A stretch of DNA of 43,391 nucleotides from Nitriliruptoraceae bacterium (GTDB lineage: Bacteria; Actinomycetota; Nitriliruptoria; Nitriliruptorales; Nitriliruptoraceae), in the NCBI GenBank assembly GCA_040903225.1, contig JBBDVU010000031.1, forward strand, positions 1 through 43,391, in the 5' to 3' direction. The position numbers and the translations under genes were made by a program. The stretch's first letter is position 1. Each line of letters opens with the position of its first letter. The notes under the pieces are model-generated. The model did not search any database. It had not been told where the DNA came from and was given only the letters and a program-made list of their open reading frames with translations. Below are positions 17,434-28,596 of the stretch, piece by piece.

Positions 17434-18570
17434 ATGCGCGACATTTTGGACACCGTTCGAGCTTGGCGGCAGCATGACGACGCGGTCGGGCTGGCAACCG
17501 TTGTCGATGTGCGGAGAAGTGCGCCCCGTCAGCCGGGTGCGGCAATGGCGGTCAGCGCAGCTGGTGAGGTTATCGGCAGCGTGTCGGGTGGGTGCGTCGA
17601 AGGCGCAGTCTTCGACGTTGCGCAACAGGTCATGGCGTCACACCAACCTCAGCTGGTGACCTACGGCATCAGTGACGATGAAGCCATGGCGGTCGGGTTG
17701 ACGTGCGGCGGTGAGATCGAATTGTTCATCGAGCGGCTTGATAGTCGCAGTCGAGCGCAGATCGATGCAGTCGCCGATGCGATTGCGGCGGAAGCGCCGT
17801 TAGCACTTGCAACCGTCATCGCAGGACCGGCCGATATCGCCGCCAAGCTTGCGGTCACTGAAACAGATGTTGTTGGCACGCTCGGCGACGAGGGCTTGGA
17901 TGCCGCCGTCGGCGACGATGCACGCGGCATGCTTGAACAGGGAGCTACTGCCCAGCGACGATATGGCCGCCATGGTGAGCGGCGTCGCGACGAGGTGACC
18001 GTGTTCATCGAGTCGTTCGCGCCACGGCCCCGCATGTACGTGTTCGGTGCCATCGATTTCGCCGCCGCGGTTGCGCGCATCGGCAGCTACCTCGGCTATC
18101 ACGTCACTGTCTGTGATGCACGCGCCGTGTTCGCTACGCGTAAACGTTTTCCGGAAGCCGATGACGTCGTCGTCGAGTGGCCTCATCGGTTCCTGGCTTC
18201 CGCGCCAGTCGACCGGCGAACCACTATTTGTGTGCTCACGCACGACCCCAAGTTCGACGTGCCGGTACTCGAGATCGCGCTGCGTTCTGACGCCAGCTAC
18301 GTCGGCGCGATGGGTTCACGGCGCACCCACGAAGATCGCATGCAGCGCCTGCGCGAGCAAGGGCTGACAGATCGTGAACTGGCCCGGCTGCACTCACCTA
18401 TCGGACTCGATCTTGGCGCCCGTACACCAGAAGAGACGGCGGTTTCGATCGCAGCCGAGATCATCCAGAGCCGCTGGGGCGGGCCGGGTCTTCCCCTGCG
18501 TGCTACGTCAGGCGCCATCCATCGGCATGCCGATCGCGTTCGGTCAGCCGGCGGCGTTCTATCCGCCTGA
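17434..18570 (+). CDS. XdhC/CoxI-family cofactor-insertion accessory protein
   Basis: N-terminal XdhC_CoxI motif (ATVVDVRRSAPRQPGAAMAV...GSVSGGCVEG) and a C-terminal Rossmann-like XdhC_C domain (MYVFGAIDFA...). No xdhAB or cox structural genes are nearby. Confidence 0.8.
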   Translation: MRDILDTVRAWRQHDDAVGLATVVDVRRSAPRQPGAAMAVSAAGEVIGSVSGGCVEGAVFDVAQQVMASHQPQLVTYGISDDEAMAVGLTCGGEIELFIERLDSRSRAQIDAVADAIAAEAPLALATVIAGPADIAAKLAVTETDVVGTLGDEGLDAAVGDDARGMLEQGATAQRRYGRHGERRRDEVTVFIESFAPRPRMYVFGAIDFAAAVARIGSYLGYHVTVCDARAVFATRKRFPEADDVVVEWPHRFLASAPVDRRTTICVLTHDPKFDVPVLEIALRSDASYVGAMGSRRTHEDRMQRLREQGLTDRELARLHSPIGLDLGARTPEETAVSIAAEIIQSRWGGPGLPLRATSGAIHRHADRVRSAGGVLSA

Positions 18571-18610: not shown

Positions 18611-19090
18611 ATGCGACTTGAACTTGGCAAGCGAGCCGACTACGCGATTCGGGCGGCGGTTGATCTCGCGCGTCATCATGCCGATGGGCGTCGCAAAGCC
18701 CGGGCAATTGCCGACGAAATGAGCATCCCGACGAGCTATGTGCCGCAGATTCTGGCGGAACTTGTTAGGGCTGGCATTGCGCGATCCGTGGCCGGCCCCG
18801 ATGGCGGCTATTCGCTGTCGCAACCACCGGTTGACGTGTCGCTGCTCGACGTCCTCCACGCGGTCGATGGCGACGTCGTATCGACGGACTGTGTCCTGCG
18901 AGGTGGGCCTTGTCGCTGGGAAGGTGTGTGCGCGGTGCATGTGCCGTGGTCCCGCGCGCAGCATGCGTTGCTGGACGTGCTCGCCTCGACCAGCCTTGCC
19001 GACATCGTCAATATTGATCGCCAATTGGACGACGGTTCGTTCGAGCTTCCGCCCGACATCGCGATGCCGTTGAACCCTCCACCGGTGTAA
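18611..19090 (+). CDS. Rrf2-family transcriptional regulator with a three-Cys putative Fe-S site
   Basis: N-terminal winged HTH typical of Rrf2 (MRLELGKRADYAIRAAVDLA...). Cys cluster C-x6-C-x5-C (CVLRGGPCRWEGVC). The start is the internal ATG of track ORF 18374..19090. Confidence 0.8.
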   Translation: MRLELGKRADYAIRAAVDLARHHADGRRKARAIADEMSIPTSYVPQILAELVRAGIARSVAGPDGGYSLSQPPVDVSLLDVLHAVDGDVVSTDCVLRGGPCRWEGVCAVHVPWSRAQHALLDVLASTSLADIVNIDRQLDDGSFELPPDIAMPLNPPPV

Positions 19091-19136: not shown

Positions 19137-20282
19137 TCAGACACGTTCGGCTGCCAGCACACACGCAGGATCGTCGGCGAACACGTCGCCAGTCAACGCG
19201 AACGCGCGCGACCGAGAGCCGCCGCAGACATCGGCGAAGCCACAGGATCCGCAGGCACCGTGGAGTCGCTTCGGATCGCGCAGCATTCGCATCAGCGGTG
19301 CATTCCGGTAGATGTCGAGCAGCGGCTGGCTGCGGACAGACCCTGCAGCGACGGGCAGGAATCCACTTGGATAGACGATGCCGAGGTGGTCGATGAAGAC
19401 GAAGCCGCGTCCGGCATTGATGTCGAGTGGCGGCCGTGCGGCTGGTCGCGCCGCAACCTCGGAGGTATCGGTCAGCGCTCGTAGTTCGGCGTACAGATGG
19501 TGCAGCCGCGATATTGGAGGTCGCGCAATCGCCGACGAGCGCCTGCGGGTCCGTTCGACGGCTATGCGTCGGTAGTGCGGCGCTTCGGTGGTCTTGATGG
19601 CGATGCGGCCAGAGACGTCATGCAGCCAGTGCAGAATCGCTTCGGTCTCGTCGGGGTCGGGCGCATCAATGTTGGCGCCGCGTCCGGTCGGTACCAAGAA
19701 GAACACACTCCACAGCCACGCCTGTGCGTGTTCGACAAGCTGCAGGATTGCTGGCAGTTCGCGTGCGTTGCTTCGCGTGACGGTCGTGTTGATCTGCAGC
19801 CGCAGTCCCGCCTGCCTGACGTCGCGCGCAGCGGTGATTGTGGCGTCGAACACACCGGCGATACCCCGGAACATGTCGTGGGTGGCAGCGACGGCGCCGT
19901 CGAGTGACAGGGAAACCGCACGGGCGCCTGCGGCCTTCGCCTGTGCGATCGATTCGGGCGTGAGACGCGCTGTCACCGACGGTGACTGCGCCATGCTCAA
20001 ACCCCGCTGTGCGCCGTGCGCAAGTAATTCGAAAAGGTCATCGCGTTCGAACGGGTCGCCGCCGGTGAGGACGACCAGCGGCGGGGGTGCGCCGAGGTCA
20101 GCGAGTTCGTCGAGCATCGCCATCCCGTCGGCAGTCGAAAGTTCCCGCGGGTGGCGTTGGTCAACGGCGTCGGCCCGACAATGCTGGCACACGAGCTGGC
20201 ACGCCTTGGTTACCTCCCAGATCACCAGAAATGGTCGTTCGTTGACGTCGTAGCGAACATGCCGGACCGGGATGTCACGCAT
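19137..20282 (-). CDS. Radical SAM enzyme with C-terminal SPASM-like Cys cluster (AhbD/NirJ-like)
   Basis: CxxxCxxC motif (CQLVCQHC) about 30 aa from the N-terminus. C-terminal Cys-rich region (CGSCGFADVCGG...DPAC). Start MRDIPV at 20282 overlaps the upstream stop (ATGCGTGA). Confidence 0.8.
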   Translation of the reverse strand: MRDIPVRHVRYDVNERPFLVIWEVTKACQLVCQHCRADAVDQRHPRELSTADGMAMLDELADLGAPPPLVVLTGGDPFERDDLFELLAHGAQRGLSMAQSPSVTARLTPESIAQAKAAGARAVSLSLDGAVAATHDMFRGIAGVFDATITAARDVRQAGLRLQINTTVTRSNARELPAILQLVEHAQAWLWSVFFLVPTGRGANIDAPDPDETEAILHWLHDVSGRIAIKTTEAPHYRRIAVERTRRRSSAIARPPISRLHHLYAELRALTDTSEVAARPAARPPLDINAGRGFVFIDHLGIVYPSGFLPVAAGSVRSQPLLDIYRNAPLMRMLRDPKRLHGACGSCGFADVCGGSRSRAFALTGDVFADDPACVLAAERV

Positions 20283-21804
20283 GCGGGGTCCGATCGCCGA
20301 GGTGGTCGATGACCTGAAGCACGGCGCGTTCGGCGCTGCGGAGGCAATTCGCCAGCCCAGGGCCGTCGAACGCTGCCCCGGCGAGAACGACCCCTGGCCG
20401 GTGTACGCCGAGGCTGTTGCGAGCTGCCTGGATTCGCTGGCTGTGGCCAATCTCGTTGACGGGAAGGGTGTGGGTCCAGCGGTGCACCGCAACTTGTTCT
20501 GGTGTGGCGCGCAGACCGGTGATGGCGGACAACTCGCCATGGAGCCGGTCGGTCACCTCCGCATCGGAAAGATCGTTGGCTCGGGTGTCACCGAACCGAC
20601 CAGTCGACATCCGAACCAGGAACTGCGGCGGCAGATCGAGGTGCGGCCACTTGGCGCTGAGAAATGTGGCCGACTTCAGCATGCCGCCAAAGTTCGACGG
20701 AAGCATGATCCCGGAGGCGTCGAAGGCCGACAGAGATTCGACTGCTGCCTGCGGGTACGCAACGACCACGCACGTGACCGACGACGTCGGACAGCGACCG
20801 AGTGTGGTTGGGATGTCGGTGACGTCGGCAAGCATTCGTGCTGCCGATGCCGCGCCTGTTGCGATGACGACGGCGGCGAACGTCTCGGTTGCCGAATGCG
20901 GAGTCGACGTCGGGGCACCCGTCGGGCCAACGATCTGGTAGCTGCCACCGGCCGTCTTGACGATTGCCTGTACGGGCTGGCCCAAACGGACGTCAGTGCC
21001 ACCCGCCAGTTGCTCGATCACCCGTTGCAGACCGGACACTGCCGTGGCGAAACCCGGCACGTCGGCTGCGCTGCCCGGATGCACCGGCGATGGTCGCCGC
21101 CGCGATCGCCGCAACGTTGCGGCGAGGACGGACCGGTTCGCTGTGAGCTGATCGACCAACTGGGGTGCGCAGCTGCGTGCCTCCAAACGGAAAATGTCGG
21201 CGCCGTGGAGATTGCCCAGCAAGGGATCGACAATGCGCTGTGCCAACTGCCGACCGAACCGTTCGGTAACAAGCTGGCCGACCGACGTTTGATCGGTGAT
21301 GTGGCTGCGTGTGCGTACGAGTTCGGTCGCCGCCCTGAGCAGGCCCGTGGGCGACAGGATCCGGGATGATGCGACCGGCAGCAGCCGGGTCGGTCCGGCC
21401 GGCGTGACGCCATGGGGAAGCCGCCGCAGCGTGACCGCCGGTTGTCCGGCGATTTCGCCAGGAGGTATCCAACCGCTGCTGCCGGTCCCGGTGGGCACGC
21501 CGATCCAGGTGCGCAACCGCCGAGCCCGAACGATGTCGTTGGAACACGCGGTGAAAAGTTGCGGCATGCCGGCAGCGGCAAATATGGCTTCGGCCCCGAG
21601 TTCGACGGCAACGCCAGCCGTGACGTTGACACTTCGCACCTGGCCACCGATGCGGCCAGATGCCTCGAACACCACCGGGGTGTAGCCGCGATCGGCAAGC
21701 AGGGCTGCAGTTGCAATACCGGTGACGCCGGCGCCAATGACCGCGATGCGATGGTCAGGCGCCAGTCCTGGCGTGGATGAACGTTGGTCTACTTGTCCTG
21801 GCAC
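20275..21804 (-). CDS. HemY-type FAD-dependent (copro/proto)porphyrinogen oxidase-like protein
   Basis: N-terminal dinucleotide fold IAVIGAGVTGIATA...FEASGRIGG. Mid-protein VGQLVTERFGRQLAQRIVDPLLGNLHGAD and a C-terminal LAGAAFDGPGLANC, all typical of HemY/CgoX. Confidence 0.7.
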   Translation of the reverse strand: MPGQVDQRSSTPGLAPDHRIAVIGAGVTGIATAALLADRGYTPVVFEASGRIGGQVRSVNVTAGVAVELGAEAIFAAAGMPQLFTACSNDIVRARRLRTWIGVPTGTGSSGWIPPGEIAGQPAVTLRRLPHGVTPAGPTRLLPVASSRILSPTGLLRAATELVRTRSHITDQTSVGQLVTERFGRQLAQRIVDPLLGNLHGADIFRLEARSCAPQLVDQLTANRSVLAATLRRSRRRPSPVHPGSAADVPGFATAVSGLQRVIEQLAGGTDVRLGQPVQAIVKTAGGSYQIVGPTGAPTSTPHSATETFAAVVIATGAASAARMLADVTDIPTTLGRCPTSSVTCVVVAYPQAAVESLSAFDASGIMLPSNFGGMLKSATFLSAKWPHLDLPPQFLVRMSTGRFGDTRANDLSDAEVTDRLHGELSAITGLRATPEQVAVHRWTHTLPVNEIGHSQRIQAARNSLGVHRPGVVLAGAAFDGPGLANCLRSAERAVLQVIDHLGDRTPHA

Positions 21805-21813
21805 GACAGCGGT

Positions 21814-22209
21814 CTATGACGCTGGGACGAATACGAGTTCCATGCCGGCATCTCGATGTCCTGGCACCGAGCACCAGCCGATCACCGGTTCGCTGATGGG
21901 GCCGATGGTTATCGTCGCGGCCCGGCCGGGACGGATCATGCCGCTGTCGACGCTGTCGGTCACCAGGTCGTGCACGATGCCGCCCTCGTTGACCAGTTGC
22001 AGCGTCGTCGGCTGAGTCGCCGAGATCGCGACCTCGTCAGGTTCGAACCGGATGTCATCGAGAATGATGACGACGGCGTCATCGGGTGCCTTGCTAGCAT
22101 CGGGTTCGAGATCGGGTGCGCAGGCGATGATCGCGATACTGAAGGTGGATGCCACGGCCACCTGGGCCGCCGAGCGAAAGCGGAACGATGCCGGGGTTGC
22201 CATGTTCAT
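21814..22209 (-). CDS. Lipoprotein cupredoxin (type 1 blue copper protein)
   Basis: Signal peptide with lipobox (SIAIIAC). Type 1 Cu ligand pattern: His (IVHDL) ... C-x2-GH-x4-M (CSVPGHRDAGM). ATG 22209 is preceded by GAGG at 7 nt; TTG 22233 is an alternative start. Confidence 0.75.
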   Translation of the reverse strand: MNMATPASFRFRSAAQVAVASTFSIAIIACAPDLEPDASKAPDDAVVIILDDIRFEPDEVAISATQPTTLQLVNEGGIVHDLVTDSVDSGMIRPGRAATITIGPISEPVIGWCSVPGHRDAGMELVFVPAS

Positions 22210-22287: not shown

Positions 22288-22320
22288 ACTAACATTTAGT
22301 CCAATGACAAACGTTTATTA
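22288..22320. promoter_or_regulatory. AT-rich quasi-palindromic operator candidate (site 1) in the divergent cupredoxin/ctaA intergenic region
   Basis: ACTAACATTTAGTCCAATGACAAACGTTTATTA. It shares TAACATTnAGT and ACAAACGTT blocks, at the same (or +1) spacing, with 28134-28166. Half-sites TAACATT and AACGTT(A) are inverted repeats. Confidence 0.55.
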
Positions 22321-22349: not shown

Positions 22350-23483
22350 ATGCCAACTCATCAGCGACACGGTCGGCGCGTGACGTTCGTCCGCCGTCTC
22401 GCGGTAGCGACGTCGATCGGGACGCTGGTGCTGATCGCTATGGGTGGTGGGGTCAGGGCAACCGATTCCGGGCTTGCCTGCCCCGACTGGCCGGCCTGCT
22501 ACGGCATGTGGATTCCGCCAGCGGACTTCAATATGTGGATGGAGCACAGTCATCGGCTGTGGGCGGGTGTGATCGGGATTGCGGTAGCGTTGCTGATGGC
22601 GTTGACTTTTGTTGATCGCAAGGCGGCACCCGCGCCATGGCGACTCAGTGCGCTCGCGGGCCTGCTGGTCATCGTACAAGCAGGACTCGGTGCAGTGGTC
22701 GTGCTCCTGCATCTGCGTGCCGGCCTGGTGACGTCGCACCTGGGTATGTCGCTTGTCATCGTCGGTGCGCTCATCGCGGTTGCCGTTCGGGCGGGCACCA
22801 CTACCCCGGATGCAGGCGCCCAATTTGTGGGCACAGCATGGAATGCGCGTACCGTGCGGTTCGGATCGATTGCGGCGGCAGCGGTATTCGTGCAAGCCCT
22901 GCTCGGTGGTCAAGCCACCGGCCGTGGCGCTGCCTATGTCTTCAACGCTGTGCCGATCTGGTTGGCGACCGATGCCTGGTCGGGTCACATCCGAGAGATC
23001 CTGCACGTGACCCACCGGGCGGGTGGCTATCTGGTCGCTGCCGCCGTCGTCGCATTCGCGGTGCATGCCGCGCGACGCAGTCGCCGTCTGGCGGAGGTTG
23101 CCGACGCCTCGGCCAACCGCGCGATCAGCCCGGCGAGTTCGGACAGCATGAGCCTAAAGCGTGCTGCGCGCATCGCCCGGAACACCAGATTCTGGGCAAT
23201 CATCGCCGCCGGTCTCGTGGTGGTCCAGGTGGGATTAGGGCTTGCCAACGTGTTGACACAGGCTATGGTTCCGGTGGCCGTCGGACACTTGTCAGTCGCA
23301 AGCTGGCTGTGGGCAGTGCTGGTGCTGATCGTCGTCCGGGAGCGACACGCGCGGGATCTCGAATATGCATGGGGCGGGATTGAGCTCGGTCCGAACATTG
23401 CAGTTCACGGCGGATCTGGTCGTGCCCCGGTTTTGGCATCGTCGTCGGCATCCGAGCCATCGACTTCGGAGGTGACCGTATGA
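22350..23483 (+). CDS. ctaA: Haem A synthase (COX15/CtaA)
   Basis: GGGVRATDSGLACPDWPACYG motif plus conserved His in TM helices (EHSHR). Polytopic. Confidence 0.85.
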   Translation: MPTHQRHGRRVTFVRRLAVATSIGTLVLIAMGGGVRATDSGLACPDWPACYGMWIPPADFNMWMEHSHRLWAGVIGIAVALLMALTFVDRKAAPAPWRLSALAGLLVIVQAGLGAVVVLLHLRAGLVTSHLGMSLVIVGALIAVAVRAGTTTPDAGAQFVGTAWNARTVRFGSIAAAAVFVQALLGGQATGRGAAYVFNAVPIWLATDAWSGHIREILHVTHRAGGYLVAAAVVAFAVHAARRSRRLAEVADASANRAISPASSDSMSLKRAARIARNTRFWAIIAAGLVVVQVGLGLANVLTQAMVPVAVGHLSVASWLWAVLVLIVVRERHARDLEYAWGGIELGPNIAVHGGSGRAPVLASSSASEPSTSEVTV

Positions 23484-23641: not shown

Positions 23642-24217
23642 GTGGACACCGATCACACCACGCACGACGAATCCGCGCACAGCAAGGCGCAGTCGACGTT
23701 GCTGCCTCCGCCAGACCGATGGTGGCAACGTCTCGGGCCCGATGAGAGACGCTGGCTCACGATCGCCTTTGTCTGGTGCTTGATCTTGTTCAGTGGCATG
23801 TACATCTGGCTCGGTATCGGCGATCAACAGACGCCGATCGAGTCGTATCGTGTGGATCCGGTTGTTTTTGCGGCGGAAGTCCAGGATTTCATCGAAGAGC
23901 ATCAGGTTGATGAAATCAGCGGTGCGGCGATCGTCGCACCGCCACCCGGTAGTGATGTCTATCTTCAGGCCAACCAGTTCGCGTTCCGGCCGGTGTTGCA
24001 ACTGCAGCGCGGCGAAACCTATCGATTGCTCGTTTCGTCAACCGACGTGCAGCACGGTTTGTCGCTCCAGCCGGTCAACCTCAATTTCCAAGTCCTGCCC
24101 GGGTATCTGTACGTGATTCGCATCACGCCCACAGAAACCGGGGAATTTCCGATCATCTGCAACGAGTTCTGCGGCCTTGGTCATCACGTGATGACCGGGT
24201 TGATCGTCGTCGACTAG
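23642..24217 (+). CDS. Haem-copper oxidase subunit II, ba3 (B-family) type, with intact CuA site
   Basis: One TM helix plus a cupredoxin domain with CuA ligands: H (DVQHG), CNEFCGLGHHVM. The length (191 aa) and the string EFPIICNEFCGLGH closely resemble Thermus ba3 subunit II (YRIICNQYCGLGH). Confidence 0.85.
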   Translation: MDTDHTTHDESAHSKAQSTLLPPPDRWWQRLGPDERRWLTIAFVWCLILFSGMYIWLGIGDQQTPIESYRVDPVVFAAEVQDFIEEHQVDEISGAAIVAPPPGSDVYLQANQFAFRPVLQLQRGETYRLLVSSTDVQHGLSLQPVNLNFQVLPGYLYVIRITPTETGEFPIICNEFCGLGHHVMTGLIVVD

Positions 24218-24259
24218 ACCGCGCAGGCGTATCGACGCCGGATATAGGGAGGCAAACAC

Positions 24260-26011
24260 GTGACCGCCATCGCGGAGCCAACGGCATTCCGGACATGTAA
24301 TGTCACCGGATTTCGGATCCACAAGGACGGCCAGCGCCATGCGCTCGTCAACGCTGTCGCGGCCGTGGTGCTGCTGGCGATCGGCGGCACATGGGCCATA
24401 TTGATCGCACTGCAGCGCCAGGGCCTACCAATCAGTGAGGACTGGTGGTACCGGCTGCTTGCCAGCCACGGCGCGACCATGCTGCTGTTCTGGATCTTGT
24501 TCTTCGAAGTCGCAGCCTTGTACTGGGGCTCGACGATGCTGCTCAATGCGCGAATGCTCGCGTCGAAGCTCGCCTGGGCCAACTTTGCGATGATGGCCCT
24601 TGGTGTTGCGCTCGCGCAATGGGCGATGTTGACCGGCCGGGCCACCGTCATGTTCACGGCCTATCCGCCATTGACGGCGCACCCGCTCTACTACGCCGGC
24701 ATCCTCATGTTCGCGGTTGGTGTGCTGATCGCCTGCTGCATCTTTTTTGCCAACATCATCGTTGCCAAGCGCGAGAAGACCTATGAAGGGTCGCTGCCGC
24801 TGGTGGTGTACGGGCTGGTCGCTGCTGCGGTCATCGCGGTGTATGCGCTCGGGACCGGAGCGGTGGCCTATGGGATGCTGTTCCTCGACTCCGTCGGGTT
24901 GATGGACGGTGTCGACCCGGCGTTGTACCGACTGTTTTTCTGGGGTATCGGCCATGGCGCGCAGCAAGTGAACCTGGCCGCGATGGTGGCCGTCTGGTAC
25001 GCGCTGATCGCGTTGACGCTGGGTGGACGGCCGGTCAACGAAGGACTGAGCCGATTCGCGTTCCTGCTCTACATCGCGTTCATTCACCTTGGCGCCGTGC
25101 ACCACCTGCTCGTTGACCCGGGCCTTGGCACCAGCCACCGCATCATGAACACGAGCTATTTCCTGTACCTCGCGGTGCTGGCGAGTCTCATCCATGCGTT
25201 CTCGGTTCCTGCGGCAATGGAAGTTGCCCAACGTGAACGCGGAATCGGCCACGGAATGTTCGGCTGGCTCAAGAAGGCGCCGTGGCGCGAACCAGGATTT
25301 TCGGCGCTGGTGCTCTCGGTGGTGTACTTCGGGTTCATTGCGGGCGTGACCGGGGTGCTCATGGGCACGATGCAGCTCAACATGATCATCCACAACACGC
25401 TGTTCGTGGTCGGTCACTTCCACGCCACCGTAGTTTCCGGGACGACGCTCGCGTTCATGGGCATCTCGTACTACATCGTGCCGCTGTTGAGCCAGCGCAA
25501 GTTGTCATCCCCGCGGATGGCGCAACTGCAGACGTATGTATTCGCTGGAGGCTTGGCGATACTGACCCTGGGGATGTTGGTCGCTGGTCAGCGCGGTGTG
25601 CCGCGTCGGGTGGCGGACCTGGAATACACCGGATCGCCGCTCAGTGTTGAGCTGTTCGGTGCGACGACACCGACGCCAATGCTCATGGGGATCATCTCGG
25701 TTGGTGCCGTGCTCGCGGTCGTCGGTGGCGTCATGTTTGTCTGGAACATGGTGGCGACACTGTTCTGGGGCGAGCGGACCGAACGTGGCGACGAAGGGCT
25801 CGCTATCGCCTACTCCAACATTGCTGGTCGTGACAGTCGCGGCATTGCGGTGCAGACGCACCCCGACCTGGTGGCGCAAGGCATCAAGGGTCGATGGGCG
25901 CAATTCGAAGCGCCGGGTACGTACCTGATCGTGCTGATTTTCTTGGCCTGGTTCGTGGTGATGTATGTCGCCGCCCATCTCAATCTGTCGCGCGCCTGGC
26001 CGGTCGGATAG
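24260..26011 (+). CDS. Haem-copper oxidase superfamily subunit I, ba3-like (B-family related), lacking the canonical cross-linked Tyr
   Basis: Alignable by eye along its length with Thermus ba3 subunit I. Ligand His present: H70, H232, H281/H282, H386/H388. Motif GHGAQQV replaces GHPIVYF. Confidence 0.85.
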   Translation: MTAIAEPTAFRTCNVTGFRIHKDGQRHALVNAVAAVVLLAIGGTWAILIALQRQGLPISEDWWYRLLASHGATMLLFWILFFEVAALYWGSTMLLNARMLASKLAWANFAMMALGVALAQWAMLTGRATVMFTAYPPLTAHPLYYAGILMFAVGVLIACCIFFANIIVAKREKTYEGSLPLVVYGLVAAAVIAVYALGTGAVAYGMLFLDSVGLMDGVDPALYRLFFWGIGHGAQQVNLAAMVAVWYALIALTLGGRPVNEGLSRFAFLLYIAFIHLGAVHHLLVDPGLGTSHRIMNTSYFLYLAVLASLIHAFSVPAAMEVAQRERGIGHGMFGWLKKAPWREPGFSALVLSVVYFGFIAGVTGVLMGTMQLNMIIHNTLFVVGHFHATVVSGTTLAFMGISYYIVPLLSQRKLSSPRMAQLQTYVFAGGLAILTLGMLVAGQRGVPRRVADLEYTGSPLSVELFGATTPTPMLMGIISVGAVLAVVGGVMFVWNMVATLFWGERTERGDEGLAIAYSNIAGRDSRGIAVQTHPDLVAQGIKGRWAQFEAPGTYLIVLIFLAWFVVMYVAAHLNLSRAWPVG

Positions 26012-26014
26012 GTC

Positions 26015-26950
26015 ATGGCAATGTCTTCGGCAGCGGCAGAGACGGCGGTTGTCACCAGCAGTGCAGCCTCGGCTGCAACGTGGCGCGACGCGGTCGCCGA
26101 CTATACGAGCCTGACCAAGCCGCGGATCATCGAGCTGCTGCTGGTGACGACGGTGCCAGCGATGTTCGTCGCCGCTCGCGGTTGGCCCGGGACCGGGCTG
26201 CTGGTCGCAACACTCGCGGGTGGCGCGCTCGTGTCGGGTTCGGCGCATGCGTTCAACATGGTTATCGACCGCGACATCGACGGCATGATGGCGCGGACCC
26301 GCAACCGCCCGATGCCATCGGGCAGGATCTCGGTACAGTCGGCGCTGCAGTTTGCGACGGTGCTGCTTGTGCTGGGCACGACAATACTTGCGGCATTCGC
26401 GGGCATGCTGGCCACGGCGCTCACCGTTGTCGCCTGGGCCTGGTATGTCGTCATCTACACGCTCCTGCTGAAGCGAAGAACACCGCAGAACATCGTGATC
26501 GGGGGTGTCGCCGGCGCGCTCCCGCCAATGATCGGCTGGGCCGCCGTGACCGGATCGATCGCCATGCCGGCCGTCATCATGTTCGCTGTTGTGGTGTTGT
26601 GGACCCCCACACACTTTTGGGCGCTTGCGATCGGCACCGGGCAGGACTACGCAAATGCCAACGTGCCGATGCTGCCGGTACTCCGGGGAGCGCATGCCGC
26701 CGGGAGGCAGGCGGCGGTCTACGCCGCGCTGACGGTGGCGGCGTCGTTCACCTTGTTAGCCGCTGGCTTGTCTAGCCCGATTTTCGCTGTGTTGCTGGTG
26801 TTGTTCGGCACGGTCTTTGTTGGTTATGCCCTGTTGTTTGCCAGGTCGATTTCGTGCAAGCGCGCCTGGGTGCTGTTCCACCTGTCCAACGGCTACCTGG
26901 CGCTGGTATTTGCCGCGATCGCGGCGGTCGGTCTGCTCCACGAATGGTGA
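26015..26950 (+). CDS. ctaB: Protohaem IX farnesyltransferase (haem O synthase)
   Basis: UbiA-family with CtaB strings (GSAHAFNMVIDRDIDGMMARTRNRP; TPQNIVIGG; LWTPTHFWALA). Confidence 0.9.
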   Translation: MAMSSAAAETAVVTSSAASAATWRDAVADYTSLTKPRIIELLLVTTVPAMFVAARGWPGTGLLVATLAGGALVSGSAHAFNMVIDRDIDGMMARTRNRPMPSGRISVQSALQFATVLLVLGTTILAAFAGMLATALTVVAWAWYVVIYTLLLKRRTPQNIVIGGVAGALPPMIGWAAVTGSIAMPAVIMFAVVVLWTPTHFWALAIGTGQDYANANVPMLPVLRGAHAAGRQAAVYAALTVAASFTLLAAGLSSPIFAVLLVLFGTVFVGYALLFARSISCKRAWVLFHLSNGYLALVFAAIAAVGLLHEW

Positions 26951-26954
26951 CATC

Positions 26955-28163
26955 GTGAACGGGCGTCGCGTCAGCTTGGCGCTGACGATCGGTATCGCGG
27001 TTGTGCTCGTCAACGGATTGGCAGCCACGCCGGCGCACGCGCACACGCGGACCGCGGAAACGACCAATCTTGCCAGTGTCGTCACCAACGCGCCTGAACT
27101 CGAGGGTGTCACCTTCACGGTCTATACCGGGGGCTTTCTTATTGGGCTCACGAACGCGACGGATCGCGACATCATCGTGGCCGGATACGACGGTGAGCCG
27201 TACCTGCGCATCGGGCCCGACGGTGCGTTCGAGAACCGGCACTCGGCCGCGACCTATCTCAACCGGGAGCGTTACGGTGATGTGGCGGTCCCACCGCGTG
27301 TCGACCCTGCGAGCGACCCAGACTGGATCCGGGTCAGTGCACAACCATCGTGGGTGTGGCACGACCACCGCACCCATTGGATGTCACCGCAGCCACCGCG
27401 TTTCGTTGAAGCGTCGGTGGTGACCCGCCTGCTGATGCGTGCACGGCTCGTGGGGCCGATCGGATCGGGCGGAGAGCAACAGGGTGCGTTTCAGGAGTGG
27501 CAGATCCCGTTCGAGCACGATCAACATGCCTATGTCATTAGCGGCGAGTTGCGCTGGATCGACGCGCCACCAGTATGGCCGTGGTACCTGCTGGCAGCAG
27601 CGTTTGTTGCGATGATGTTGGGTGTGAACCGTGCGGTGTCCCGCCATGAGATGATCGGGCCCCAGCGATGGTTGAACCCGCTCGCCAACCTCGTCGTGGC
27701 GGTGGCTGTCGTAAACGCCATTCACCTAGTTGATGATCTGGCAGCATGGCCTGGCGACCTGCTCGACGAACTATTTGGCCTGCTGCACACGCTGCTGTTT
27801 CTCACCGCTGGCCTGGTCGGCGCGTTCTGGGCCCGTTATGCCCGTGACGGGCGGGTTTTGGCACTCGGCATCGCCTCTGGTGCCCTGGTGTATCACCAGG
27901 GTCTGGTGCACCTGCCGATGCTGTACGCATCACAGTTTCCAACACTGTGGCCACCCGAGCTCGTTCGATTCAGTGTTGCACTGGGACTCATGCAAGCCGT
28001 GCCTGTGGCATGGTTTGTCATTGGCCACCTGCGCAGCCACCGTTCCGATGCCAACAACGGCCTGCAGGCAGATGTGAGCCAGCCGACGGTGCCGGTGGCG
28101 TCGAAAGCGGACCAGCCGCACATCAACTTGGATAGTAACATTAAGTATGGTACAAAACGTTAG
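26955..28163 (+). CDS. Exported His-rich domain fused to a polytopic membrane domain; function unknown (candidate copper-handling or assembly factor)
   Basis: GTG 26955 lies 4 nt after the ctaB stop. Signal peptide ends ...ATPAHA, followed by HTRT. Motif WVWHDHRTHWM (nt 27357-27383). Five or six C-terminal TM helices. Confidence 0.6.
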   Translation: MNGRRVSLALTIGIAVVLVNGLAATPAHAHTRTAETTNLASVVTNAPELEGVTFTVYTGGFLIGLTNATDRDIIVAGYDGEPYLRIGPDGAFENRHSAATYLNRERYGDVAVPPRVDPASDPDWIRVSAQPSWVWHDHRTHWMSPQPPRFVEASVVTRLLMRARLVGPIGSGGEQQGAFQEWQIPFEHDQHAYVISGELRWIDAPPVWPWYLLAAAFVAMMLGVNRAVSRHEMIGPQRWLNPLANLVVAVAVVNAIHLVDDLAAWPGDLLDELFGLLHTLLFLTAGLVGAFWARYARDGRVLALGIASGALVYHQGLVHLPMLYASQFPTLWPPELVRFSVALGLMQAVPVAWFVIGHLRSHRSDANNGLQADVSQPTVPVASKADQPHINLDSNIKYGTKR

Positions 28164-28166
28164 TAT
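28134..28166. promoter_or_regulatory. AT-rich quasi-palindromic operator candidate (site 2), upstream of the second cupredoxin gene
   Basis: AGTAACATTAAGTATGGTACAAAACGTTAGTAT. Inverted half-sites are TAACATT (28136-28142) and AACGTTA (28156-28162), with an inner GTAnnnTAC. Overlaps the last codons of the upstream gene and lies about 70-95 nt before ATG 28231. Confidence 0.55.
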
Positions 28167-28230
28167 CAGCGCTACAACGCCATCACATCAGGTGGTGATC
28201 AGCGCCACGGATTCGCAAAGGAGAATATTC

Positions 28231-28596
28231 ATGCGCACGTCCAGAGTCCTCGTGATCGCGATCGCCGCTGTGGTGATCGCCGCGTGTGGAGGGGGTGACG
28301 ATGCGCCCGCCGCAGCCCCTGCGAGCGGCGCCATCAGTGTCGAAGCCGGCGACTTGTACTACGAACCGACGAGCCTGACTGCTGCGGCAGGTGAGATTCA
28401 GATCACCATCGAGAACACCGGCGCGGTCGAACACGATGTCGTCATCGAAGAAGCGGGTGACGTAGAGGTCGTCCATGCAGAGGCCGGAGAAACCGTAACT
28501 GGCACCGTCACGCTCGAAGCAGGCACCTACACGTTCTACTGCGCGATTCCAGGCCACCGTGCTGCCGGCATGGAGGGGACGCTCACCGTCCAATGA
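28231..28596 (+). CDS. Lipoprotein cupredoxin (type 1 blue copper protein), paralogue of 21814..22209
   Basis: AAGGAG Shine-Dalgarno sequence upstream of the ATG. Signal plus lipobox (VVIAAC). Cu ligands: H (VEHDV) ... CAIPGHRAAGM. Confidence 0.8.
   Translation: MRTSRVLVIAIAAVVIAACGGGDDAPAAAPASGAISVEAGDLYYEPTSLTAAAGEIQITIENTGAVEHDVVIEEAGDVEVVHAEAGETVTGTVTLEAGTYTFYCAIPGHRAAGMEGTLTVQ

What the first reader, a model, noticed from the sequence alone, without database searches (positions are those of the whole stretch)
19137..22209. Cupredoxin, HemY-like oxidase and AhbD/NirJ-like radical SAM/SPASM enzyme in one tightly coupled operon next to ctaA
Three minus-strand genes are separated by 9 nt and by an 8-nt overlap (ATGCGTGA).

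HemY/CgoX makes coproporphyrin or protoporphyrin using O2. The radical SAM protein has the CxxxCxxC motif plus a C-terminal Cys cluster, as in AhbD (the O2-independent decarboxylase that converts Fe-coproporphyrin to haem) and NirJ (haem d1 synthesis).

Actinobacteria normally complete the coproporphyrin-dependent pathway with ChdC/HemQ. Pairing an O2-dependent HemY-like enzyme with an AhbD-like radical SAM enzyme and a blue copper protein is therefore unusual. The operon is also divergent from the haem A synthase and shares the candidate operator with it.

Two explanations seem possible. One is a hybrid, low-oxygen haem-maturation branch. The other is a tetrapyrrole modification that serves the adjacent oxidase.
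Basis: partly seen in the sequence, partly recalled or inferred. Interest (0 to 1): 0.6.

Follow-up and report, generated by a model that had tools for sequence, protein, structure and literature searches.

The report
Low-oxygen haem-finishing operon beside NO reductase
The three genes form a real operon whose radical SAM enzyme is an AhbD-type, oxygen-free finisher of haem synthesis, paired with its own copy of the preceding oxidase; the idea is already published, but the dedicated oxidase copy and the link to a nitric-oxide reductase gene set add detail.

Summary
A lipoprotein cupredoxin (21814-22209), a HemY-type FAD oxidase (20275-21804) and a radical SAM enzyme (19137-20282) lie on the minus strand, separated by a 9-nt gap and an 8-nt overlap.

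- **Radical SAM enzyme.** It belongs to NCBIfam TIGR04053 and falls below the cut-off of TIGR04545, the model for methanogen and sulfate-reducer AhbD. It has the Cys pattern of the "AuxII-only" AhbD subgroup. The Haloferax ahbD, whose deletion causes anaerobic haem auxotrophy, and the Thermus "NirJ" also fall in TIGR04053, and both sit in denitrification clusters.
- **HemY-like protein.** It belongs to a distinct paralogue clade that lies directly upstream of this enzyme in 38 of 80 actinobacterial loci. Canonical hemY sits beside hemE, hemQ or hemH.
- **Cupredoxin.** It is exported, so it cannot serve a cytoplasmic HemY. It more likely serves the neighbouring ctaA-oxidase-ctaB set, which an earlier follow-up called an eNOR nitric oxide reductase.

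Most likely this is a peroxide-independent haem b supply branch switched on together with that reductase. AhbD-like enzymes in coproporphyrin-route bacteria are already predicted in the literature, and this scan has met them at least eight times on other DNA. Only the HemY paralogue pairing looks undescribed. Interest is moderate to low.

The parts
19137..20282 (-). Radical SAM enzyme of family TIGR04053: an AuxII-only, AhbD-type candidate for oxygen-independent coproheme decarboxylase (haem b synthase)
   Evidence: TIGR04053 scores 479 bits (cut-off 395) and TIGR04545 scores 300 (cut-off 500). It has CX3CX2C (C28, C32, C35) and CX2CX5CX20C (C344, C347, C353, C374). E233, S306 and S356 sit where TIGR04545-type proteins have Cys (subgroup defined in PMC10452713).
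20275..21804 (-). HemY2: a paralogue of coproporphyrinogen oxidase (HemY/CgoX) that is co-inherited with the radical SAM gene
   Evidence: TIGR00562 scores 136 bits (cut-off 97.85). The best PDB match is B. subtilis HemY 3I6D, E 5e-43, over the full length. It falls in a clade of 30 HemYs with SH-aLRT support of 100, all directly upstream of TIGR04053 genes and separate from the hemE/hemQ/hemH-linked HemYs.
21814..22209 (-). Exported lipoprotein with a type-1 copper (cupredoxin) site
   Evidence: It has a signal peptide with lipobox IIAC and the ligand pattern IVHD...C-x4-H-x4-M. Orthologues in L038, L040, L043 and L044 keep the lipobox Cys. Cupredoxin_1 scores 26.9 bits.
22290..22315 (.). AT-rich dyad TAACATT-N13-AACGTT in the ctaA/cupredoxin spacer; a candidate operator
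Evidence: A second copy lies at 28136-28161, ahead of the second cupredoxin gene. These are the only two strict matches in the window, and the whole assembly has one further match of doubtful relevance.
22350..23483 (+). ctaA (haem A synthase), divergent from the operon
   Evidence: COX15-CtaA scores 125.6 bits.
23642..26011 (+). Haem-copper enzyme subunits II (23642-24217) and I (24260-26011); a probable eNOR-type NO reductase
   Evidence: COX2 and COX1 Pfam hits. Subunit I scores far below every oxygen-reductase cut-off in NCBIfam. It has GHGAQQ where ba3 has the catalytic Tyr. The eNOR call is from earlier notes e1-4256937 and e1-4256938.
26015..26950 (+). ctaB (haem O synthase)
   Evidence: UbiA scores 206.5 bits.
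18611..19090 (+). Rrf2-family regulator, convergent on the radical SAM gene
   Evidence: Rrf2 Pfam scores 112.5 bits and TIGR00738 scores 109 bits. The same convergent position is seen in L038, L043, L044, L048 and L091, and in Rhodococcus yananensis L093.
28228..28596 (+). Second lipoprotein cupredoxin, preceded by the second copy of the dyad
   Evidence: ORF 28147-28596, with an internal ATG giving MRTSRVLV...AACGG and a C-terminal CAIPGHRAAGM. It gives weak plastocyanin and halocyanin matches. The start coordinate is inferred.

Best explanation
The operon encodes an alternative ending for the coproporphyrin-dependent haem pathway.

**Proposed steps**
- HemY2 oxidises coproporphyrinogen III to coproporphyrin III.
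- The stand-alone ferrochelatase found elsewhere in the genome inserts iron.
- The radical SAM enzyme, an AuxII-only AhbD-type haem synthase, turns the two propionates of coproheme into vinyl groups using S-adenosylmethionine. It does not need the hydrogen peroxide that ChdC/HemQ requires.

**Role in this lineage**
- In this Nitriliruptoraceae lineage the module shares a divergent promoter region with ctaA, a tyrosine-less haem-copper enzyme (probably an eNOR nitric oxide reductase) and ctaB.
- It therefore most likely supplies haem b, and through it haem O and haem A, to that enzyme under microoxic, NO-generating conditions.
- The neighbouring Rrf2 regulator probably controls this.
- The cupredoxin is an exported lipoprotein. 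It most likely carries electrons to the CuA subunit of that enzyme rather than serving HemY2.

**Shown**
- Gene order and coupling.
- Family memberships.
- The Cys/Glu/Ser signature.
- The HemY2 clade and its linkage to the radical SAM gene.
- Lipoprotein topology.

**Inferred**
- The substrates.
- Co-regulation.
- The cupredoxin's partner.
For: **Family of the radical SAM enzyme**
- It passes TIGR04053, and its nearest other family is AhbD (TIGR04545, 300 bits), ahead of NirJ2 (194), NirJ (189) and AhbC (177).
- It carries exactly the signature that Fix et al. (PMC10452713) describe for AhbDs of non-methanogenic archaea. That signature is CX3CX2C, CX2CX5CX20C, and Glu/Ser/Ser in place of three AuxI cysteines.

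**Function of the family**
- Haloferax volcanii holds a TIGR04053 member over the cut-off.
- The Haloferax larsenii gene scores 501.6 on TIGR04053. It has the neighbours reported for ahbD HVO_2144: halocyanin, norB and a multicopper oxidase.
- Deleting HVO_2144 abolishes growth by denitrification or DMSO respiration, and protohaem rescues it (PMC5746218).

**Tetrapyrrole context**
- A HemY gene lies directly upstream on the same strand in 38 of 80 actinobacterial loci.
- These HemYs form one clade, apart from the canonical HemYs.
- Three genomes hold both hemY-hemQ and hemY2-radical SAM.
- In L053 the order is hemY2, radical SAM, ferrochelatase.
- The best solved relative of HemY2 is B. subtilis HemY.

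**Own genome**
- hemE, a canonical hemY and a ferrochelatase are present.
- No AhbA/B was found, and the only other SPASM-like radical SAM gene is MoaA.
- No ChdC was found in the 73%-complete assembly.

**Link to nitrogen-oxide respiration**
- The same radical SAM family sits with NO reductase genes in Thermus, together with an Rrf2 regulator (norCBH-nirS-'nirJ'). There it is induced by NsrR and DnrS/T under denitrification (PMC5748679).
- It also sits with NO reductase genes in Haloferax.
- It does so in seven Nitriliruptorales loci including the window.
- eNOR uses haem As in both haem sites and needs microoxic conditions (PMC11214002).
Against: - No enzyme of TIGR04053 has been assayed in vitro. 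The Haloferax evidence is genetic, and that organism makes coproheme from sirohaem, not coproporphyrin.
- HemY-type oxidases need O2, so the branch is not fully anaerobic as written.
- ChdC is present in every relative tested that carries the module, so the module is an addition, not a replacement. The absence of ChdC in this genome may reflect the missing 27% of the assembly.
- In an evenly drawn sample of 401 Actinomycetota genomes, only 4 of the 27 that carry TIGR04053 (not counting this genome) showed an adjacent HemY2 at my threshold. Only three candidates per genome were scored there, so this is a lower bound.
- Co-regulation rests on a shared dyad motif found in this genome. My strict pattern did not recover it in most relatives.
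- The eNOR identity was only partly checked here.
Confidence: 0.62

Rival explanations
1. The radical SAM enzyme is a NirJ-like maturase. It would make haem d1 or another modified tetrapyrrole needed specifically by nitrogen-oxide reductases, not haem b.
For: - The Thermus orthologue is named NirJ and sits between nirS and nirM (PMC5748679).
- The family is linked to N-oxide reductase genes in three phyla.
- eNOR carries an unusual haem (PMC11214002).
Against: - NirJ models score only 189-194 bits, against 300 for AhbD.
- No NirDLGH/AhbAB was found in this genome, and no second NirJ/AhbC-like radical SAM gene.
- Haloferax uses a copper nitrite reductase, and its mutant is rescued by plain protohaem (PMC5746218).
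- The HemY2-radical SAM pair occurs in many Actinomycetota with no cta or NO reductase genes nearby.
Confidence: 0.1
2. The two enzymes form a protoporphyrin-type branch. The radical SAM enzyme would decarboxylate coproporphyrinogen (a CgdH analogue) and HemY2 would oxidise protoporphyrinogen IX.
For: - A decarboxylase and a porphyrinogen oxidase are translationally coupled.
- A ferrochelatase follows them in L053.
- HemY-type enzymes include true protoporphyrinogen oxidases.
Against: - All characterised relatives of the radical SAM enzyme (AhbD, AhbC, NirJ) act on iron tetrapyrroles (PMC10114771, PMC10452713).
- HemY2 is closest to the coproporphyrin-route B. subtilis enzyme (151 bits), ahead of Myxococcus PPO (77 bits).
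- The host lineage otherwise has coproporphyrin-route genes.
Confidence: 0.08
3. The radical SAM/SPASM protein is a peptide or other non-tetrapyrrole maturase, and its proximity to haem genes is incidental.
For: The SPASM-type C-terminal domain is shared with many peptide maturases, and weak hits to such families appear.
Against: - Peptide-maturase models score 58-114 bits, far below their cut-offs.
- No precursor-like small ORF is conserved next to the gene. The only recurrent neighbour is HemY2.
- There is genetic evidence for a haem function in the same family (PMC5746218).
Confidence: 0.02

Closest known systems
AuxII-only AhbD of non-methanogenic archaea (subgroup of Fix et al. 2023, PMC10452713), for example Haloferax volcanii HVO_2144 (PMC5746218)
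   Same: - Same NCBIfam family, TIGR04053.
- 45-50% identity to haloarchaeal members.
- Same CX3CX2C and CX2CX5CX20C motifs, with Glu/Ser/Ser replacing the AuxI cysteines.
- Also placed beside a blue copper protein and an NO reductase, with a palindromic operator.
   Different: - The host makes coproheme by the coproporphyrin route (hemE, hemY and hemH are present), not from sirohaem.
- The gene is coupled to a HemY paralogue, which Haloferax lacks.
AhbD (haem b synthase, TIGR04545) of Methanosarcina barkeri and Desulfovibrio vulgaris
   Same: It is the nearest biochemically characterised family (300 bits). The predicted reaction is the same: SAM-dependent oxidative decarboxylation of coproheme.
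   Different: - The window protein falls below that family's cut-off of 500.
- It lacks the four AuxI cysteines, so it would hold one auxiliary cluster, not two.
- True TIGR04545 members in Actinomycetota sit in hemB-ahbD-hemL operons instead.
Thermus thermophilus 'NirJ' of the nic cluster (PMC5748679)
   Same: It belongs to the same family (482.8 bits). It lies in an NO reductase / nitrite reductase cluster with an Rrf2 (NsrR-type) regulator and is induced under denitrification.
   Different: - In Thermus it is assumed to mature cd1 nitrite reductase, and no HemY gene is adjacent.
- Here there is no nirS.
- The reductase is of the cNOR type in Thermus and of the ba3-derived type here.
HemY/CgoX-ChdC(HemQ) pair of Actinobacteria and Firmicutes
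   Same: Both pair a porphyrinogen oxidase gene with the gene for the terminal coproheme decarboxylase, and both have the same overall pathway logic.
   Different: The decarboxylase here is a radical SAM enzyme instead of the peroxide-dependent ChdC. The oxidase belongs to a separate paralogue clade.
hemN/hemF switching under Anr/Dnr in Pseudomonas aeruginosa (from my own knowledge, not checked here)
   Same: An oxygen-independent radical SAM haem enzyme is induced together with denitrification genes.
   Different: The pathway step, enzyme family and regulator family all differ.

Membership tests
NCBIfam TIGR04053 radical SAM/SPASM family | Whole-protein score above the curated cut-off of 395 bits | tested here: met
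   479.3 bits, covering profile positions 2-363 of 366. The genome search gives the same result.
AhbD sensu stricto (NCBIfam TIGR04545, haem b synthase) | Whole-protein score above the curated cut-off of 500 bits | tested here: not met
   299.9 bits. Actinobacterial proteins in hemB-ahbD-hemL operons score 511-542.
AhbD sensu stricto (NCBIfam TIGR04545, haem b synthase) | Full SPASM motif with eight C-terminal cysteines (AuxI and AuxII clusters) | tested here: not met
   The C-terminal half has only four cysteines. E233, S306 and S356 replace three AuxI ligands.
AuxII-only AhbD subgroup (Fix et al. 2023) | CX3CX2C radical SAM motif | tested here: met
   C28-x3-C32-x2-C35, invariant in alignments A1 and A3.
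AuxII-only AhbD subgroup (Fix et al. 2023) | C-terminal CX2CX5CX20-38C motif | tested here: met
   C344-x2-C347-x5-C353-x20-C374, invariant in alignments A1 and A3.
AuxII-only AhbD subgroup (Fix et al. 2023) | Conserved Glu and two Ser in place of three AuxI cysteines | tested here: met
   Alignment A3 shows KTTEAPHY versus K(P/A)TCAPHY (KPTDAPHY in two of the four TIGR04545-type rows), YPSGF versus QPCGY, and CGGSRSRA versus CGGCRARA.
AuxII-only AhbD subgroup (Fix et al. 2023) | Conversion of coproheme to haem b with SAM | not testable with these tools
   There is only genetic evidence, for the Haloferax member (PMC5746218).
HemY-type porphyrinogen oxidase (TIGR00562; CgoX/PgoX) | Score above the cut-off of 97.85 bits, with an N-terminal FAD-binding GxGxxG | tested here: met
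   136 bits. The sequence has VIGAGVTG at residues 22-29. The full-length best PDB match is 3I6D.
HemY-type porphyrinogen oxidase (TIGR00562; CgoX/PgoX) | Substrate is coproporphyrinogen III (CgoX) rather than protoporphyrinogen IX | not testable with these tools
   Inferred only from the closer match to B. subtilis HemY and from the coproporphyrin-route context.
Type-1 copper cupredoxin | His, Cys, His and Met ligands in a cupredoxin fold | tested here: inconclusive
   The ligand pattern IVHD...C-x4-H-x4-M is present, but Pfam Cupredoxin_1 scores 26.9, just under its cut-off of 27. No structure was predicted.
eNOR nitric oxide reductase (neighbouring genes) | ba3-related subunit I that lacks the cross-linked tyrosine | tested here: inconclusive
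   GHGAQQ is present at the expected place and an HH pair is retained. All oxygen-reductase models score far below their cut-offs. No comparison with the Rhodothermus enzyme was made here; the eNOR call comes from notes e1-4256937 and e1-4256938.

The most novel reading that the evidence does not exclude
HemY2 and the AhbD-type enzyme work as a redox-coupled pair. The flavin of HemY2 would pass the electrons from porphyrinogen oxidation to the iron-sulfur enzyme or to the respiratory chain instead of to O2. Both terminal steps would then be oxygen-independent, giving Actinomycetota a fully anaerobic ending of the coproporphyrin route. That would be the actinobacterial counterpart of CgoN plus AhbD.
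Probability: 0.12. Interest if true: 0.65.

Novelty: new variant of a known kind. Interest (0 to 1): 0.38.

Why it matters
Reviews of haem biosynthesis still list the anaerobic ending of the coproporphyrin route in Gram-positive bacteria as inferred, not demonstrated.

- **Testable candidates.** This locus and its relatives offer a concrete candidate pair: a dedicated HemY paralogue plus an AuxII-only AhbD. Several carriers can be grown in culture (Nocardioides, Rhodococcus, Intrasporangium, Cryobacterium).
- **Thermus annotation.** The results suggest that the 'NirJ' of Thermus denitrification clusters is a haem b synthase rather than a haem d1 enzyme.
- **Haem supply and NO reductases.** They also suggest that haem supply is co-regulated with NO reductases in bacteria and archaea alike.

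The central idea is already published, so the gain is refinement, not discovery.

Tried and rejected
I took genomic context from the search for related loci, the genome search and the plasmid collection instead.
- **No phylogeny against reference enzymes.** I could not obtain reference sequences of M. barkeri or D. vulgaris AhbD, NirJ or AhbC by reference.
- **Literature.** A search for TIGR04053 found nothing. Searches for AhbD with CgoX, HemY or Actinobacteria found no description of a HemY paralogue paired with AhbD.
- **Cupredoxin as HemY acceptor.** Rejected on topology, because the lipobox is conserved in orthologues.
- **ChdC replacement.** Rejected as a general claim, because ChdC is found in 36 of 41 relatives and in 5 of 5 carriers tested. 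It stays open for this genome alone.
- **Operator in relatives.** A strict operator pattern recovered nothing in relatives except the Rrf2 promoter of the closest syntenic genome. The pattern was probably too narrow.
- **NirK.** None was found in this genome.
- **Unpublished genomes.** The tallies include unpublished genomes G025, G028, G032 and G033. Two canonical-HemY rows of the tree (L136, L138) come from such genomes. No conclusion depends on them.
Full report
**Observation.**
The window has 63% G+C. It comes from a 1.04-Mb assembly that is 73% complete. Shared contigs place it in Nitriliruptoraceae.

- The cupredoxin runs from 22209 to 21814.
- Nine nucleotides further on, a GTG at 21804 opens a 509-residue FAD protein.
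- Its TGA stop overlaps the ATG of a 381-residue radical SAM protein within ATGCGTGA.
- ctaA is divergent. It is followed by haem-copper subunits II and I and by ctaB. An Rrf2 regulator converges on the radical SAM gene.

**The radical SAM enzyme.**
It passes NCBIfam TIGR04053 (479 bits, cut-off 395). Its next-best families are:
- AhbD, TIGR04545: 300 bits, below the cut-off of 500;
- NirJ2: 194 bits;
- NirJ: 189 bits;
- AhbC: 177 bits.

Peptide-maturase models score far lower. JGI names homologues "AdoMet-dependent heme synthase", and NCBI names them only by family.

It has C28-x3-C32-x2-C35 and C344-x2-C347-x5-C353-x20-C374, and no other C-terminal cysteines. I aligned it with four actinobacterial proteins that do pass TIGR04545 (511-542 bits, in hemB-ahbD-hemL operons). 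In that alignment it shows Glu233, Ser306 and Ser356 where those proteins have cysteines (Asp at the first position in two of the four); a fourth, non-conserved position also lacks the cysteine. This is the pattern that Fix et al. report for AhbDs of non-methanogenic archaea, which lack the AuxI cluster (PMC10452713).

**What the family does.**
- Haloferax volcanii has a TIGR04053 member above the cut-off, whereas Methanosarcina matches TIGR04545.
- On a Haloferax larsenii megaplasmid the family member scores 501.6 bits. It is followed by a halocyanin and lies near norB and a multicopper oxidase. These are the neighbours reported for ahbD HVO_2144.
- Deleting HVO_2144 abolishes growth by denitrification or DMSO respiration, and protohaem restores it (PMC5746218). 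That HVO_2144 itself is the TIGR04053 hit is inferred from this synteny.
- In Thermus thermophilus JL-18 the family member is the gene called nirJ, in the order Rrf2 / norC-norB-norH-nirS-nirJ-cytochrome c. Its promoter depends on the Rrf2 protein NsrR and on DnrS/T under denitrification (PMC5748679).

**The HemY-like protein.**
- It passes TIGR00562. Its best solved relative is B. subtilis HemY (3I6D, E 5e-43, full length).
- The genome also has a canonical hemE-hemY pair on another contig and a stand-alone ferrochelatase.
- Among the 80 actinobacterial loci that encode the closest TIGR04053 relatives, a HemY gene lies directly upstream on the same strand in 38. It is the only neighbour that recurs across lineages.
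- In a tree of 68 HemYs, the 30 upstream-of-radical-SAM proteins form one clade (SH-aLRT 100). The clade spans Acidimicrobiia, Nitriliruptoria and Actinomycetes.
- The Microbacteriaceae HemYs form the sister group (support 94). In most Cryobacterium loci they lie just downstream of the radical SAM gene.
- HemYs beside hemE, hemQ or hemH fall outside both groups.
- Nocardioides malaquae, Rhodococcus yananensis and an Intrasporangium genome each hold both a hemY-hemQ pair and a hemY2-radical SAM pair.
- In one Nitriliruptorales genome the order is hemY2, radical SAM, ferrochelatase, and no other HemY was found.
- In an evenly drawn sample of 401 Actinomycetota genomes, 28 (this one included) hold TIGR04053 above the cut-off. 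The four best HemY2 matches are all adjacent to it. That is a lower bound, because few candidates per genome were scored.

**ChdC and the other Ahb genes.**
- ChdC was found in 36 of 41 relatives, including the four Nitriliruptoraceae relatives that carry TIGR04053. It was also found in all five carriers tested by handle.
- It was not found in this genome. The gene after the canonical hemY is unrelated.
- With 27% of the genome missing, this absence is not established.
- AhbA/B was not found, and the only other SPASM-like radical SAM gene is MoaA. The sirohaem route is therefore not indicated.

**The cupredoxin and the neighbours.**
- The cupredoxin has a signal peptide ending in the lipobox IIAC and the ligand pattern His...Cys-x4-His-x4-Met. 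Orthologues keep the lipobox cysteine. It is therefore extracytoplasmic and cannot take electrons from a cytoplasmic flavoprotein.
- Its linkage, and the linkage to ctaA-oxidase-ctaB, is confined to Nitriliruptorales loci. Within these the content varies: cupredoxin plus radical SAM without HemY2 (L038, L040, L043), radical SAM alone (L091), or all three (window, L044).
- Subunit I has GHGAQQ where ba3 oxidases carry the catalytic tyrosine, and it scores far below every oxygen-reductase model. Earlier follow-ups of this scan read it as eNOR. I checked only these two points.
- eNOR binds haem As in both sites, is often encoded with CtaA, and was expressed only under microoxic conditions (PMC11214002).
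- A dyad, TAACATT-N13-AACGTT, lies in the ctaA/cupredoxin spacer and again before a second lipoprotein cupredoxin at 28.1 kb. These are the only two strict copies in the window.

**Reading.**
- The operon most likely gives a peroxide-independent way to finish haem b.
- It is probably switched on together with a haem-A-dependent NO reductase when oxygen is scarce.
- An O2-using HemY paralogue is not contradictory in that setting, because CtaA also needs O2.
- Whether HemY2 has a different acceptor or oxygen affinity is unknown, and that is the only part with real novelty potential.

**Known or new.**
Reviews already state that AhbD occurs in Gram-positive bacteria with the coproporphyrin route, and that an AhbD-like enzyme may replace ChdC anaerobically (PMC13564367, PMC10114771). 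This scan has reached the same conclusion at least eight times on other genomes. I found no description of the HemY paralogue clade tied to this enzyme, nor of the actinobacterial link to eNOR genes. I therefore rate the finding a new variant of a known kind, of moderate to low interest.

**Limits.**
- No reference AhbD or NirJ sequences could be brought into a tree.
- The tallies, and two tree rows, include unpublished genomes (G025, G028, G032, G033). No conclusion depends on them.

Noticed in passing
L119 (Thermus thermophilus JL-18 plasmid pTTJL1801) 8016-9143: The gene called nirJ in the Thermus nic cluster is a TIGR04053 member (482.8 bits) with AhbD as its next-best family. Thermus has coproporphyrin-route genes, so its assumed role in cd1 nitrite reductase maturation may be a misassignment.
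   Followed up: partly
G002 contigs C15, C19, C26 (L033, L034, L035): The closest syntenic relative carries three copies of the TIGR04053 gene. Two have their own HemY2. It also has a third, weakly scoring HemY beside ChdC.
   Followed up: partly
L161, L162, L164, L165: Small-genome Actinomycetota hold true TIGR04545 AhbD. In three of them a hemB gene lies directly upstream, and in L162 the order is hemB-ahbD-hemL. The phylum therefore contains both AhbD subgroups, in different operon contexts.
   Followed up: partly
L050, L064, L069, L080 (Cryobacterium): In Cryobacterium the linked HemY lies downstream of the radical SAM gene, not upstream. It forms the sister clade of HemY2, and some species have it 5 kb away.
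   Followed up: no
L043 1804-2115: One cupredoxin orthologue has Pro where the C-terminal copper-ligand His should be (CAVPGPRDAGM). This is either a sequencing error or a copper-site loss.
   Followed up: no
G037:C243:65754-67891 and G039:C93:757-2903 (L014, L015): Two adjacent radical SAM/SPASM genes. One matches TIGR04053 in two pieces within a 701-residue open frame, which may be a fused or tandem AhbC/AhbD-like pair.
   Followed up: no
L121 (Deinococcus ficus plasmid pDFI2) 7953-9122: A TIGR04053 gene lies next to a cytochrome P450, a CbiX/SirB chelatase, cobA and a sirohaem-type nitrite/sulfite reductase.
   Followed up: no
plasmid collection: Thirty-one Bacillus plasmids carry a homologue of the radical SAM protein (E at most 1e-40). 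Their context was not examined.
   Followed up: no
window 17434-18570: An XdhC/CoxI-type accessory gene lies upstream of the Rrf2 regulator. An XdhC homologue also lies next to the Rrf2 gene in L091.
   Followed up: no
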